Positions 20 through 2,738 of a stretch of DNA of 18,956 nt are shown here, one piece after another. Below the pieces are notes generated by a model, which worked only from the letters and a program-made list of their open reading frames with translations, did not search any database and was not told the origin of the DNA. The first letter of the stretch is position 1. Each line of letters opens with the position of its first letter. A program made the position numbers and the translations under genes. Source of the stretch: a virus. The stretch lies in the IMG/VR virus record IMGVR_UViG_3300017963_003040. The stretch is one strand, 5' to 3'.

Positions 20-409
20 TCACGCTATCACCTCCACGTTCTCTTTGGGGACGCCCATGCGATTCAGCAACTGGAATACCCTCACAATGCCACTCTGAAC
101 ACTGGGCCTATAGGGCTCTGAACCCGTACGCGGTTGTTCATTGGGGCCGAACGAAACCCGGAAAGATACGTGTCTCTTCTTGAACGTCACAGCGGCGTAT
201 GGCCAGTCCTGAGCCCCACGACGCCGCAGGGAGGACTTCTTCTCCATCTTCTTCTTGATAAAGTCCGGCATTTCTTTCTTGCCGCCTTCGTCCTTCTTGC
301 CCTTGTCGTTCTTCTTCCACTGCTTCTTGAAGGCTTCGGGCACCTCACCTGCCGTTGCCAAATCCTCGGCAATCGCTATCAGTTCCTGAGCTACTTTTTG
401 TCTGTTCAT
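20..409 (-). CDS. Small hypothetical protein, lysine-rich. Its N-terminus MNRQKVAQELIAIAEDL is paralogous to the N-termini of the genes at 1735..2496 and 2496..2738.
   Basis: ORF 20..412. The start was moved to the second Met because AGAGGA lies 6 nt upstream of it. It contains a KQWKK element that echoes the KWKK of the paralog C-termini. Confidence 0.5.
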   Translation of the reverse strand: MNRQKVAQELIAIAEDLATAGEVPEAFKKQWKKNDKGKKDEGGKKEMPDFIKKKMEKKSSLRRRGAQDWPYAAVTFKKRHVSFRVSFGPNEQPRTGSEPYRPSVQSGIVRVFQLLNRMGVPKENVEVIA

Positions 410-457
410 CACGTGTCCTCTTTCGCCGTTCCAATCGGTTCTTTCGATGGCGTCTTT

Positions 458-1738
458 TTATTGCTTGACCACTATCACATAATCCGGACGGTCGCTCTTG
501 AAAACCACAATCCACTGTGACTCAGTGAACTTATCCCTACGACGGACCTTATCCACATCGTCAAGGTCTTCCTTGGAAAGACCCCCAATCTCAAGAATCT
601 CCCGAATTGTGGTTTCCTTGCCCTGTAGTCCATCAATAAATGCACCACTAGAAGTCGTCTTTACCTCGACTTTCTTGGGGCCAAGCCGTATTCCAAGAGC
701 ATCAGCAACCTTTCTATATGCCGGGTCATCGGCAAATAAAGTACCCTCGGAGTGTTTCATGTTGGACTTCATAACACTTATCTGTCCGGGGCTGCCTACA
801 ATGGGATACACGCGGCCTCCCGCTAGACCGATGGTGGCTCCATATCCGTAGGTCGTCTTGTGGGGTTTGCTAACGCGACCCGTCCTTGGGTCAACAGTTG
901 TCCTTACAACACGCTGCCTGCCCGGACGACCTTCCACCCACCACTTCGCAGTAGTGGTAAACCGGCCATATGGATAATCGTCAACCTCATACTCGTCCAC
1001 GAACTTCTGGAAGTTGGGAATTCCCCCAACGAGCTGACGAGCCAACATAAGGAGGCCACGCGCCACTGTGCTCCGGTTCGAACCCAAGCTCTTGGAATCC
1101 TTGACTTCGAGCGCGGCAGTTTTCAAGCTCGCATTCCGTTCAAGCGAAGCCCACTCGCGGTTGGCTCGTGATATCTCTCGCTTGTAGGCACTCAAGCCTT
1201 TCTCTCCGATGCTCAAGCCAACAGCTTTTCCGCCACCGTCGGACGAAGGAACCGGAATTCCACGCTCGGCCACATAGCCTCGCATATTCCAATAGAGTTC
1301 GCCCCAGTTACTGCCCCTGAATCGAATCATAAAACGAGGAGTGCGTTCAAACATTTCACCACGAATCTTGACAAGCTCTACCGCCTTTCGGGCTGACCTT
1401 GTCTTGGCAGTCCTGTATCCATACTGAGGCGTTACATCGCCATACTGCTCAAACCTGCGACGCTTGTTCAGCAGCTTGAAGGCCACATCCAAGCCTTTTC
1501 TGCCATAGACGTAAACAACGCCCAGCATCTCGTAGCCCGGATTCCTGTCCGCTGTGGATGGCACCCAAGGGTACTTGTACTCAAAGACCTTGTACGGATG
1601 AGTGTCGGTTCTTGTGTCGGGAAGCTTGGTGATAAAGCCATGGGCGGCTCCAGCAGAGTCATAAGCGACCCACATCGCCTCCCGGCCAACCGCCTTCTCT
1701 TTCTTCAAATTCAATCTGGCTGATGTTCTCAGTCTCAT
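458..1738 (-). CDS. Hypothetical protein (426 aa); no family recognised by eye.
   Basis: Long ORF on the same strand as its neighbours. It overlaps the upstream gene 1735..2496 by 4 nt, which suggests translational coupling. Composition is coding-like. Confidence 0.6.
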   Translation of the reverse strand: MRLRTSARLNLKKEKAVGREAMWVAYDSAGAAHGFITKLPDTRTDTHPYKVFEYKYPWVPSTADRNPGYEMLGVVYVYGRKGLDVAFKLLNKRRRFEQYGDVTPQYGYRTAKTRSARKAVELVKIRGEMFERTPRFMIRFRGSNWGELYWNMRGYVAERGIPVPSSDGGGKAVGLSIGEKGLSAYKREISRANREWASLERNASLKTAALEVKDSKSLGSNRSTVARGLLMLARQLVGGIPNFQKFVDEYEVDDYPYGRFTTTAKWWVEGRPGRQRVVRTTVDPRTGRVSKPHKTTYGYGATIGLAGGRVYPIVGSPGQISVMKSNMKHSEGTLFADDPAYRKVADALGIRLGPKKVEVKTTSSGAFIDGLQGKETTIREILEIGGLSKEDLDDVDKVRRRDKFTESQWIVVFKSDRPDYVIVVKQ

Positions 1739-2496
1739 ATGAGTGCCACCCCTTCCCAGAAGTCAGCTTTGTCGGCTTTCTTGACTACCTGCATGAGCTT
1801 GGGAATCGTGTTCTTCGAAGAGAGTATCCCCTCCTCGTCATCCAATTCCTCGTTACGGAGCATGAAAGTGGCCCTAAGCTCGTGATACACGACAATATGC
1901 GCCGATACCTTGCTCTGGTATCGCTTGACGCCGTCTTCGCTACCGATGAACACCTCGACAAGACCACCGTCGTTATCCGATTTCCGGACACCCATTCCAT
2001 TCTTCTTGAAATAGGTTTCCAGTTCCTTCTGAATCGCTTTCAGGAGTTCCCTTTTTCTCAATTCGACCTCCCTTGATGCTTCCATCCTCAAGCGATTCAA
2101 TTCGCGGTCTTGCTCCTCCTGCTTCTTCCGAATCTCATGCTGCTTCTTCCGAAACTCAGGAAGGACAGACACCACATCGGCCAAGTCTTTGACGGCTGCC
2201 GTCAATCTCCTTCTGCGACGCCTATCGGAGCCAATCTTCATCCCCGCACTCGCGACAGCCTTGTCATCTTCTTCCGACATCTTGTCGAGCATGTCAAGGG
2301 TGCTGCCGGGTTCCGGCTCTCGCTTGTCCTCGGCTTCAACGCACTTACCAAGGAAAGAACGAGCGTTAACCTTCTTGGTGCGCCTCGTCTTGACAGGCTT
2401 CGACTCTACAGGCTCGACGATTTCCGCGTCGCCTACTTCGGCAATCAGGTCATCCGCCAAGCCCACCAACTCCTTGGCAAGCTCATGTCGGTTCAT
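1735..2496 (-). CDS. Hypothetical protein (253 aa). It has the N-terminal helix MNRHELAKELVGLADDL, an Arg6 run and a charged coiled-coil-like middle.
   Basis: ORF with GGAGG 4 nt before the ATG. The ATG overlaps the TAA of the upstream gene (TAATGA). Its N-terminus is paralogous to two neighbouring small proteins. Confidence 0.6.
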   Translation of the reverse strand: MNRHELAKELVGLADDLIAEVGDAEIVEPVESKPVKTRRTKKVNARSFLGKCVEAEDKREPEPGSTLDMLDKMSEEDDKAVASAGMKIGSDRRRRRRLTAAVKDLADVVSVLPEFRKKQHEIRKKQEEQDRELNRLRMEASREVELRKRELLKAIQKELETYFKKNGMGVRKSDNDGGLVEVFIGSEDGVKRYQSKVSAHIVVYHELRATFMLRNEELDDEEGILSSKNTIPKLMQVVKKADKADFWEGVALI

Positions 2497-2738
2497 TACG
2501 CCTCCGCAAGGACTTTCGAAAGGGCATCCACCAGCTCTTCGACCGTGGCGTTCGGACGAATGACTCCAATGCCATACTGCTTCAGACGACGACGCTTCTT
2601 CTGGCCCAGCTTGCTCATCTGGGTCTTGAGAGCGCGAACCTTGGCCGCGAACTGCTCATCCACTTCGTCTTCGCCGTTTTCCGCAGCCAGCACTTTCGCC
2701 AACCTCACCAGTCTCTTTGCGAGTTGAACGTTATCCAT
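2496..2738 (-). CDS. Small hypothetical protein (80 aa) with the N-terminal helix MDNVQLAKRLVRLAKVL.
   Basis: The ORF track gives 2496..2801 from a TTG. An internal ATG at 2738 is preceded by AGGAGGA plus a 5-nt spacer, so this start is preferred. Confidence 0.5.
   Translation of the reverse strand: MDNVQLAKRLVRLAKVLAAENGEDEVDEQFAAKVRALKTQMSKLGQKKRRRLKQYGIGVIRPNATVEELVDALSKVLAEA

What the first reader, a model, noticed from the sequence alone, without database searches (positions are those of the whole stretch)
20..2738. A shared ELAKEL amphipathic helix tags the N-termini of three small proteins and the C-termini of P2-P4; these may be cargo or docking peptides
Three left-end proteins begin MNRQKVAQELIAIAEDL, MNRHELAKELVGLADDL and MDNVQLAKRLVRLAKVL. 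P3 and possibly P4 also begin with MNR. P2-P4 end in KWKKAV(S/G)ELAKE(L/V)L, and the protein at 20..409 contains KQWKK. The core A(K/Q)EL(V/L) heptad is the same at opposite termini of otherwise unrelated proteins. In encapsulin systems, short conserved terminal peptides direct cargo into the shell. Here the shell candidate is MVP. Part of the C-terminal nucleotide conservation also encodes the AAGGAG SD of the next gene, but the protein-level conservation extends beyond it.
Basis: inference. Interest (0 to 1): 0.65.

Follow-up and report, generated by a model that had tools for sequence, protein, structure and literature searches.

The report
Portable terminal helix tag of phages
Three small proteins at the left end of this phage fragment start with the same 20-residue helix, which about 100 otherwise unrelated proteins of related uncultivated phages also carry at one end; it looks like a docking or packaging tag, but it is not tied to the vault-protein gene next door.

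Summary
The N-terminal motif is real. A profile built only from sequences outside the window scores the starts of the genes at 20-409, 1735-2496 and 2496-2738 at 8.4-10.2 bits. The next window hit scores 3.1, and 272 kb of control phage DNA never exceeds 5.9. The helix (M-[DN]-[RNK]-x-[KR]-[VI]-A-[KR]-E-L-[VL]-x-[VIL]-A-[KR]-[ED]-L-[TV]-A) is conserved in orthologues. In related loci I counted 100 distinct copies: 93 at N-termini, 5 at extreme C-termini and 2 internal, in runs of up to 18 consecutive genes. Identical residues use different codons 60-67% of the time, so selection acts on the peptide.

The P2-P4 tails (KWKKAVxELAKxxL) are also real, but they are a different thing. They form the terminal helix of one HExxH protein family, occur nowhere else, score as noise against the tag profile, and overlap the next gene's ribosome-binding site.

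A general link to MVP is not supported. None of 33 MVP-encoding viral contigs carries a tag near MVP, and 25 tag-bearing contigs show no MVP. Only the window and one syntenic relative have both.

The best reading is a portable docking peptide. Its most likely job is loading proteins into the phage head, as the T4 capsid-targeting sequence does. That destination is inferred from gene context, not shown.

The parts
350..409 (-). N-terminal tag of S1 (MNRQKVAQELIAIAEDLATA)
   Evidence: Scores 10.2 bits with the non-window profile, against a background maximum of 5.9. Starts at the ATG and is preceded by a GAGG Shine-Dalgarno-like sequence.
20..409 (-). S1, a 129-aa tagged protein: the tag is followed by the Lys-rich S1-family motif VPEAFKKQWKKNDK (302-343)
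   Evidence: Homologues with tag + GEVPEAFKKQWKDKDKDNDGK are found in L027, L038, L101, L109, L112 and 16 JGI loci.
2437..2496 (-). N-terminal tag of S2 (MNRHELAKELVGLADDLIAE)
   Evidence: Scores 9.5 bits. AlphaFold2 predicts a helix at residues 3-21 with block-mean pLDDT 80-83, followed by a low-confidence stretch at residues 24-66.
1735..2496 (-). S2, a 253-aa tagged protein: tag, then a disordered basic linker, then a long helix and a small beta domain
   Evidence: Twelve family members (P0002-P0013) were found, and those complete at the N-terminus begin with the tag or its IAERVA variant. In three of them a tag-like helix also lies at an internal domain junction. The structure model is, and no fold match was found.
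2679..2738 (-). N-terminal tag of S3 (MDNVQLAKRLVRLAKVLAAE)
   Evidence: Scores 8.4 bits. A good AAGGAGG Shine-Dalgarno sequence lies upstream.
2496..2738 (-). S3, an 80-aa tagged protein that is conserved as the first gene of the tag array, after the 80-aa gene at 2811-3053
   Evidence: Orthologues with the tag are found in L014, L020, L090 and L112, and as P0055 and P0068.
13786..13833 (-). Weak tag variant at the N-terminus of P1 (V-REARELLRVARVIISA)
   Evidence: The profile score is sub-threshold (3.1-4.2 bits). However, the core EARELLR[VI]A[RK] matches the scoring tags MNEARELLRIAKGLVA (13.4 bits) and VNEARELLRIARGLVS (9.2 bits) in L019.
15965..16027 (-). Degenerate tag-like helix at the N-terminus of P3 (MNREARIVSRVCRWFLASRME), followed by PPPKMV
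   Evidence: In the family alignment it aligns with the N-terminal tags of P0018 and P0021. It does not score with the profile. AlphaFold2 predicts a helix at residues 3-16, at low confidence.
14793..14873 (-). Internal helix of P2 at the junction between the ParB-like and HExxH domains (ELERVAQIAEAIYRDAMSRRVMAGFFE)
   Evidence: It aligns with the N-terminal helices of the shorter family members. This is consistent with a ParB-like domain having been fused upstream of a tagged HExxH protein (inference).
16927..16980 (-). Internal helix of P4 at the junction between the ParB-like and HExxH domains (KEARVARIAGRVVSGMIE)
   Evidence: Same alignment column block as the P2 helix.
13836..13877 (-). 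C-terminal helix of P2 (KWKKAVSELAKELL). It is HExxH-family specific and is not the tag.
   Evidence: Scores 1.2 bits with the tag profile. It is conserved at the extreme C-terminus of all family members, down to 30% identity. AAGGAG plus a GTGA overlap with the P1 start lie within it.
15257..15298 (-). C-terminal helix of P3 (KWKKAVGELAKEVL)
   Evidence: AlphaFold2 predicts a helix at residues 242-256 with pLDDT about 73-79.
16027..16068 (-). C-terminal helix of P4 (KWKKAVGEFAKAVL)
   Evidence: ATGA overlap with the P3 start.

Best explanation
S1, S2 and S3 carry a roughly 20-residue terminal amphipathic helix. P1 carries a weaker version and P3 a degenerate one. The helix is a portable docking module specific to one group of uncultivated large phages.

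Its consensus is M-[DN]-[RNK]-x-[KR]-[VI]-A-[KR]-E-L-[VL]-x-[VIL]-A-[KR]-[ED]-L-[TV]-A. The Ala/Leu/Val face (A4, L7, V8, A11, L14 of the core) is nearly invariant, which suits tight helix-helix packing. E6 and K/R12 on the polar face are also nearly invariant, which suggests one specific partner. Conservation stops abruptly after the helix and gives way to a variable linker.

Dozens of unrelated small proteins and some enzymes carry it at one end, so they are probably all recruited to the same phage-encoded receptor. The most likely destination is the assembling phage head, so that the tagged proteins are packaged with the DNA and delivered into the next host. This parallels the capsid-targeting sequence of the T4 internal proteins.

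Shown: the motif exists, it is conserved, it is biased to termini, it is portable, selection acts on the peptide, it is virus-specific, and its distribution is independent of MVP.
Inferred: that it binds a common receptor, that the destination is the head, and that it may be cleaved.

The KWKKAV...L tails of P2-P4 are a separate feature. They are the last helix of the HExxH paralogue family, and their final codons also encode the ribosome-binding site and overlapping start of the next gene.
For: Reality and specificity:
- Window scores are 8.4-10.2 bits, against noise of 5.9 or less in 272 kb.
- The tag is conserved in S2 orthologues, S3 orthologues and S1 orthologues.

Portability:
- Of 100 distinct tags scoring at least 9 bits in about 398 kb of related loci, 93 are N-terminal, 5 are at the extreme C-terminus and 2 are internal.
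- The distance from Met1 is fixed in 59 of 84 cases, and conservation drops sharply after core position 16.
- The P1 homologue L047:4153-5535 (E 6e-19) lacks the N-terminal helix and ends in a canonical tag.

Peptide-level selection: 60-67% of identical residues use different codons.

Helix plus linker: AlphaFold2 predicts a helix at S2 residues 3-21 (block-mean pLDDT 80-83), followed by a stretch with pLDDT below 50 at residues 24-66.

Arrays:
- L050 has about 17 consecutive tagged genes.
- L112 has 17 and L109 has 18.

Head and virion context:
- L034 and L054 show scaffold-like gene ... major head protein, a 79-aa gene, then 4-6 tagged genes. The head protein is in the same family as L019:178-1038, which matches phrog_2522 at 1e-53.
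- L042 shows large terminase, a tagged gene... portal ... tagged genes.
- L014, L018, L020, L043 and L090 have tags interleaved with conserved genes just upstream of tail-tube-like genes.

Virus specificity: one strict DNA pattern gave 12 true hits among 2.9 million viral contigs, but only 1 true tag among 5 matches in 596 Gb of bacterial and archaeal genomes.

Precedent: the 10-residue T4 CTS loads diverse and foreign proteins into heads, and the T4 internal-protein genes are poorly conserved apart from that leader (PMC9026906).

Tails: they are present in every HExxH family member and only there, always 3 residues from the end of the motif match. They overlap the Shine-Dalgarno sequence and start of the next gene.
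Against: - There is no direct evidence of binding, packaging or cleavage.
- No receptor and no prohead protease were recognised in the tag loci.
- The residue after the helix is variable (A 17, E 13, G 13, D 7 of 84), so no fixed cleavage site is evident.
- The nearest GenBank relatives by head protein have no tags within 20 kb of it (LR745208.1, 69% identity; Tunturiibacter phage Tunturi_5, 48%). The tag is therefore not a general property of this capsid type.
- In the window and in L112 the array follows MVP/TROVE rather than head genes.
- Tagged proteins are not clearly more basic than their neighbours: median pI 8.97 against 8.65.
- About 40 of the 100 censused tags were retrieved with ATG-anchored patterns, which inflates the N-terminal share.
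Confidence: 0.5

Rival explanations
1. The tags are cargo-loading peptides that dock proteins into a vault-like shell built by the MVP homologue at 6494-9283.
For: - MVP (Pfam MVP_shoulder 2e-21) lies 3.8 kb from the tag array in the window.
- The same order, MVP, LPD25-like gene, TROVE, 80-aa gene, S3, tag array, recurs in the relative L112.
- Terminal helices on a flexible linker are how other protein shells recruit cargo (established knowledge of microcompartment encapsulation peptides).
Against: - 33 MVP-encoding viral contigs have no tag above 5.8 bits in 272 kb around MVP.
- Two collection-wide tag patterns hit about 25 contigs and none of the 33 MVP contigs. The MVP scan hit none of the tag contigs.
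- L014 and L020 keep TROVE, S3 and the tags but have no MVP at the syntenic position.
- L090, from a 318-kb contig, has S3 and tags but no MVP within 10 kb.
- Window and L112 are close relatives, so their shared gene order is not independent evidence.
- Eukaryotic vault cargo uses the roughly 160-residue INT domain rather than a short helix (own knowledge).
Confidence: 0.07
2. The tag is a self-association helix. Tagged proteins bundle with one another through Ala/Leu-faced helices and form a multi-protein body or scaffold, without a dedicated receptor.
For: - The conserved face is A-x-x-L-V-x-x-A-x-x-L, with small 'a' and Leu 'd' positions. This is typical of tightly packed helix pairs (established coiled-coil rules).
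- Many tagged genes are co-encoded and probably co-expressed.
Against: The near-invariant E6 and K/R12 and the sharp motif boundary look more like recognition by one partner than generic bundling. There is no direct test either way.
Confidence: 0.15
3. The tag binds a host factor, such as a chaperone, a protease adaptor or the transcription or translation machinery. The arrays would then be host-takeover or anti-defence proteins that share one host anchor and are not packaged.
For: Arrays of small, fast-diverging genes are typical of accessory and anti-defence loci. The C-terminal parts are highly diverse.
Against: - Several conserved genes embedded in the morphogenesis block carry the tag across the lineage, for example the family with ...NSVHFDIQRF.
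- Arrays lie directly after the head protein gene or between terminase and portal.
- Hosts of these phages are unknown and probably diverse, yet the tag is very constant.
Confidence: 0.12
4. The helix has no shared function. It is an inherited N-terminal segment of one expanded paralogous gene family, or it acts at the DNA or RNA level in translation initiation or recombination.
For: Tandem arrays suggest duplication. The motif usually starts exactly at the start codon.
Against: - Synonymous sites are saturated while the peptide is kept.
- The downstream domains are unrelated and include an HExxH enzyme, Zn-ribbon proteins and the S1, S2 and S3 families.
- Copies occur at C-termini and one homologue pair has swapped ends. 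This rules out a role specific to the 5' end.
Confidence: 0.05

Closest known systems
Capsid targeting sequence (CTS) of the phage T4 internal proteins IPI, IPII and IPIII
   Same: - A short N-terminal leader is shared by otherwise dissimilar, poorly conserved small proteins.
- It is sufficient to load foreign proteins into the head.
- T4 Alt has propeptides at both termini (PMC9026906).
- The leaders sit on arrays of variable genes.
   Different: - There is no sequence similarity: the T4 CTS is about 10 residues, MKTYQEFIAE (own knowledge), while the tag here is about 20 residues.
- T4 has a defined cleavage site for its gp21 protease, and no fixed site is evident here.
- The head protein here belongs to the phage G / Tunturi_5 type, not the T4 type.
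- Packaging has not been shown here.
Encapsulation peptides of bacterial microcompartments (e.g. the N-termini of PduP, PduD and EutC, and the C-terminus of CcmN)
   Same: An amphipathic helix of about 18 residues sits at either terminus, is joined to the cargo by a poorly conserved linker, and is carried by unrelated cargo proteins (own knowledge).
   Different: No microcompartment shell genes were found in the window. The setting here is a phage. The tag sequence is far more strictly conserved than those peptides.
Encapsulin cargo-loading peptides
   Same: A short terminal peptide directs cargo into a shell with an HK97-type fold, which is related to phage capsids (own knowledge).
   Different: Encapsulin peptides are usually C-terminal and extended, with motifs such as GSL, rather than a 20-residue helix. 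No encapsulin gene is present here.
Vault cargo recruitment through the INT domain of PARP4
   Same: An MVP homologue and a TROVE protein are encoded next to the tag array in the window and in L112.
   Different: INT is a folded domain of about 160 residues (own knowledge). Tags and MVP do not co-occur across viral contigs.

Membership tests
T4-type capsid targeting sequence | A short N-terminal leader shared by diverse, otherwise unrelated phage proteins | tested here: met
   93 of 100 distinct tags are N-terminal, on unrelated proteins.
T4-type capsid targeting sequence | Sequence similarity to the T4 leader, and a conserved prohead-protease site (L/I-x-E) at its end | tested here: not met
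   There is no similarity to the T4 leader. The residue after the L-x-A end of the helix is E in only 13 of 84 tags (A 17, G 13, D 7).
T4-type capsid targeting sequence | Tagged proteins are found inside the capsid, and the leader is removed on maturation | not testable with these tools
   This needs virion proteomics. Only gene context is available: arrays lie next to the head protein, terminase, portal and tail genes.
Microcompartment encapsulation peptide | A terminal amphipathic helix of about 18 residues, at either end of the cargo, joined by a variable linker | tested here: met
   Hydrophobic moment 0.44-0.46. Predicted helix at residues 3-21 followed by a disordered linker. Copies occur at both the N- and the C-terminus.
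Microcompartment encapsulation peptide | Co-encoded microcompartment shell proteins (BMC-H/BMC-P domains) | tested here: not met
   No such Pfam hit among the 16 window proteins scanned.
Vault (MVP) cargo signal | The signal co-occurs with the MVP shell gene across genomes | tested here: not met
   The 33 MVP contigs and the roughly 25 tag contigs do not overlap. There is no tag in 272 kb around MVP genes. Only the window and L112 have both.
Vault (MVP) cargo signal | Physical binding of the signal to MVP | not testable with these tools
   The tails score 1.2 and -1.7 bits, against a background maximum of 5.9. The tail motif occurs only in HExxH family members.

The most novel reading that the evidence does not exclude
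A group of uncultivated large phages uses one strictly conserved 20-residue terminal helix as a universal address label. The label loads a large and rapidly changing set of proteins into the virion for injection. That set includes runs of up to 18 consecutive small genes, plus HExxH enzymes, some of which also carry ParB-like domains. If this is right, a phage's whole set of injected effectors could be read directly from sequence, and the tag would be a ready-made handle for loading foreign cargo.
Probability: 0.35. Interest if true: 0.8.

Novelty: new variant of a known kind. Interest (0 to 1): 0.62.

Why it matters
Short terminal peptides that address cargo to a protein shell are known for T4 heads, encapsulins and microcompartments. 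Each was found by experiment, in one system at a time. Here a tag of that form can be recognised from sequence alone. It marks about 100 different proteins in phages that nobody has cultured.

I found no Pfam or PHROG family for it among the 16 window proteins and the neighbouring genes scanned. A full-text search for six typical tag strings returned no paper.

If the tag is a head-loading signal, it identifies the injected protein repertoire of these phages, which probably includes counter-defence proteins. It would also offer a compact tag for packaging foreign proteins.

The result also corrects the tempting reading that the neighbouring vault-protein gene is the shell.

Tried and rejected
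- tblastn of S2 and P2 against 50,697 GenBank phage records found no match. A 22-residue consensus tag also found nothing.
A version padded to 45 aa worked, but returned only small proteins.
- The AlphaFold2 model of P3 was too poor to use (mean pLDDT 58.6).
- A Foldseek search of the S2 model against viral structures gave nothing at E of 0.001 or below.
- I looked for a prohead protease or scaffold in the tag loci with PHROGs, Pfam and BLASTP against the Tunturi_5 protease. Nothing was found.
- I tested whether tagged proteins are unusually basic. They are not clearly so.
- An exact-match search to extend the window leftwards in JGI metagenomes found nothing.
- The idea that the tag is a double-glycine or RiPP-type leader was considered and dropped. 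The tagged proteins are 51-446 aa, and there is no GG at a fixed position.
- A membrane-binding helix was considered and dropped. The S1 and S2 tags carry a net negative charge.
- A DNA-level repeat was rejected on codon evidence.
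Full report
**What the window is.** All recognisable genes lie on the minus strand. From right to left:
- a DUF8317 protein;
- four tandem HExxH paralogues: P4 (16024-17622), P3 (15254-16027), P2 (13833-15257) and P1 (11959-13836). P2 and P4 also have a ParB-like N-terminal domain;
- a tmRNA (9749-10158);
- an acyl-carrier-like protein (9352-9633);
- a major-vault-protein homologue (6494-9283; Pfam MVP_shoulder 2e-21, Vault_3 1.9e-9);
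- tRNA-Met (6072-6148);
- a weak LPD25 protein;
- a TROVE/Ro60-vWA protein (3186-4967);
- an 80-aa gene (2811-3053);
- S3 (2496-2738), S2 (1735-2496), a 426-aa protein and S1 (20-409).

An ENA contig that overlaps the window continues into NUDIX and NAMPT genes. Relatives lie on viral contigs of 30-340 kb, and the head protein of a syntenic relative is of the Bacillus phage G / Tunturiibacter phage Tunturi_5 type. This is a fragment of a large uncultivated phage.

**The observation.** To test them without circularity I built a 17-column profile from 15 tags taken only from other loci and scanned every window ORF of at least 30 residues in all six frames.
- S1, S2 and S3 score 10.2, 9.5 and 8.4 bits.
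- The next hit is the P1 N-terminus at 3.1 bits, and all other ORFs score 1.3 or less.
- The same profile never exceeds 5.9 bits in 272 kb (2,241 ORF segments) of unrelated phage DNA.
- With the first 20 residues removed, S1-S3 have no convincing similarity to one another.
- The shared residues are encoded by different codons in 14 of 21 identical positions.

Their K-E/K-A codons provide AAGGAG-like sequences just upstream of the next gene's start, and each stop overlaps the next start by 4 nt.

**The tag in orthologues and relatives.**
- S2 family members in the 5.8-billion-protein collection start with MNRLELANELVKIAKSMTAA, MDRMALAKELVVVAKSVTAA, MKREAQELLAVARALTAA and the like. Three longer members have an extra domain inserted, and there a tag-like helix also sits at the internal domain junction. 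Three further hits (P0014-P0016) share only the N-terminal module with S2 and have unrelated C-terminal parts; two of them begin with the tag.
- The syntenic loci L014, L018, L020, L043 and L090 carry the tag on S3 orthologues and on many neighbouring genes.
- Two degenerate DNA patterns for 'ATG + tag' were scanned over 2.9 million viral contigs. They hit about 25 contigs, often several times per contig. The flanks held many more tags. About 17 consecutive genes in L050 all begin M[ND]xQxIARELVAVA[KR]ELTA.
- Relatives found through the S1 family hold 17 tags (L112) and 18 tags (L109) in 8-12 kb.
- L112 is the closest syntenic relative: MVP, LPD25-like gene, TROVE, 80-aa gene, S3, a tagged gene, S1, then 14 more tagged genes. 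The window's array is therefore probably cut short by the left end of the window.

**Anatomy.** Eighty-four distinct N-terminal tags give the consensus M-[DN]-[RNK]-[QK]-[KR]-[VI]-A-[KR]-E-L-[VL]-x-[VIL]-A-[KR]-[ED]-L-[TV]-A.
- Conservation in the core: A4 81/84, E6 71/84, L7 83/84, A11 84/84, K/R12 78/84, L14 74/84 and A16 59/84.
- Exactly three residues precede the core in 59 of 84 tags.
- Conservation ends abruptly after position 16.
- AlphaFold2 models S2 residues 3-21 as a helix (block-mean pLDDT 80-83), followed by a low-confidence stretch at 24-66, then a long helix and a small beta domain.

Of 100 distinct tags scoring at least 9 bits, 86 follow an ATG and 7 follow a GTG or TTG start. 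Five lie at the extreme C-terminus of real ORFs, and 2 are internal. The P1 homologue L047:4153-5535 (BLASTP E 6e-19) begins where P1's tag ends and instead finishes with GTAKELIYIAKSLIS. The same cargo therefore carries the tag at opposite ends in two phages. Within arrays, 60-67% of identical residues use different codons. This is a peptide under strong purifying selection, not a DNA repeat.

**The P2-P4 tails are something else.** They score 1.2 and -1.7 bits with the tag profile. The sequence APGKW[KR]KAVxE[LI]x[KR]A[LV]L closes every member of the HExxH family found, down to 30% identity. A pattern search over all loci fetched up to that point found it only in that family, always 3 residues from the end of the motif match. 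So it is the last helix of a paralogous domain, and its final codons also serve translational coupling.

The family is nevertheless linked to the tag in another way:
- several members start with a scoring tag, such as MNEARELLRIAKGLVA at 13.4 bits;
- P1 starts with a close variant of it;
- P3 starts with a degenerate one;
- in P2 and P4 the corresponding helix sits at the junction behind the added ParB-like domain.

The 'KQWKK' in S1 belongs to the S1-family motif GEVPEAFKKQWKDKDKDNDGKENEPK.

**Is MVP the shell?**
- A profile scan found MVP homologues on 33 viral contigs of up to 470 kb.
- No tag above 5.8 bits occurs in the 272 kb around those genes.
- None of those contigs was hit by either tag pattern, and the MVP scan hit none of the tag contigs.
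- L014 and L020 keep TROVE, the 80-aa gene, S3 and the tags, but have no MVP at the syntenic position.
- Only the window and L112 have both, and they are close relatives.

MVP and the tag are therefore independent accessories, so MVP is unlikely to be the receptor.

**Where the tagged genes lie.**
- In L034 and L054 the order is scaffold-like gene, 337-aa gene, two decoration-like paralogues, major head protein, a 79-aa gene, then four to six tagged genes. The head protein belongs to the family that matches phrog_2522 at 1e-53.
- In L042 a tagged gene follows the large terminase (phrog_2, 1.6e-22), and further tagged genes follow the portal region.
- In L014, L018, L020, L043 and L090 the tags are interleaved with conserved genes just upstream of tail-tube-like genes.
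- One conserved gene of that block (...NSVHFDIQRF) begins with the helix or a weaker variant of it in all five loci.
- The strict tag pattern is virtually absent from 596 Gb of bacterial and archaeal genomes: 5 matches, of which 1 is a real tag.

**Interpretation.** The form is a terminal helix on a variable linker, at either end, on unrelated cargo, strictly conserved, phage-specific and encoded in or beside morphogenesis genes. This fits a docking peptide for a common phage receptor.

The closest working analogue is the T4 capsid-targeting sequence. That leader loads the poorly conserved internal proteins, and also foreign fusions, into the prohead (PMC9026906). I therefore favour head loading, followed by injection.

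The evidence for this is contextual only:
- no receptor or protease was found;
- no fixed cleavage site is visible;
- the nearest GenBank relatives by head protein lack tags near that gene.

Self-association of the tags and binding to a host factor both remain open.

**Novelty.** Scans of the 16 window proteins and of 30 neighbouring genes found no Pfam or PHROG family that covers the helix. There is no GenBank phage relative of S2 or P2. No paper in the searchable library contains any of six typical tag strings. The kind of element, a terminal targeting peptide, is known. This tag and its scale appear to be undescribed.

Noticed in passing
window 6494-9283 (-), with 3186-4967 (-), 6072-6148 (-), 9749-10158 (-): A phage encodes a major-vault-protein homologue beside a TROVE/Ro60-vWA protein, a tRNA-Met and a tmRNA, which together resemble the parts list of a vault or Ro ribonucleoprotein. 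MVP homologues occur on 33 IMG/VR contigs of up to 470 kb. The closest relative, L112, keeps the MVP...TROVE order.
   Followed up: partly
window 9352-9633 (-); L014:1384-1626: The acyl-carrier-like protein (Pfam PP-binding 8e-12) has D-E-L, or D-G-L in L014, where carrier proteins have the D-S-L serine that carries phosphopantetheine. It may not be a functional carrier.
   Followed up: no
window 11959-17622 (-): Four tandem HExxH paralogues (P1-P4) are linked by 4-nt stop/start overlaps. P2 and P4 have an added ParB-like domain (DGGHR / DDGNHR). A similar array of six genes lies on a 190-kb contig (L019: 7333-14836).
   Followed up: partly
window 302-343 (-); 16 JGI loci (L100-L115): The S1 family carries a conserved Lys/Asp-rich motif, GEVPEAFKKQWKDKDKDNDGKENEPK, directly after the tag. 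Its function is unknown.
   Followed up: partly
L047:4153-5535: This P1 homologue (E 6e-19) has a GNAT-like segment and a canonical tag at its C-terminus instead of its N-terminus.
   Followed up: yes
L034:2891-5155: The large gene upstream of the scaffold-like gene in the head module (portal identity not confirmed) contains an intein (Intein_splicing, Hint and LAGLIDADG hits, all below Pfam cut-offs).
   Followed up: no
window 2811-3053 (-) and 3186-4967 (-): The 80-aa gene (MPTYRANVTNRQQDQ...) always precedes S3. TROVE precedes that pair in the window, L014, L020 and L112, but not in L090. The TROVE family was seen in 5 of 29 sampled tag contigs.
   Followed up: partly
L095:1464-1775 (Victivallaceae MAG contig CAYODJ010000001.1, 183 kb): This is the only real tag found in 596 Gb of bacterial and archaeal genomes, with a weaker one next to it. 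It may be a phage contig binned into a MAG, or a hint about the host.
   Followed up: no
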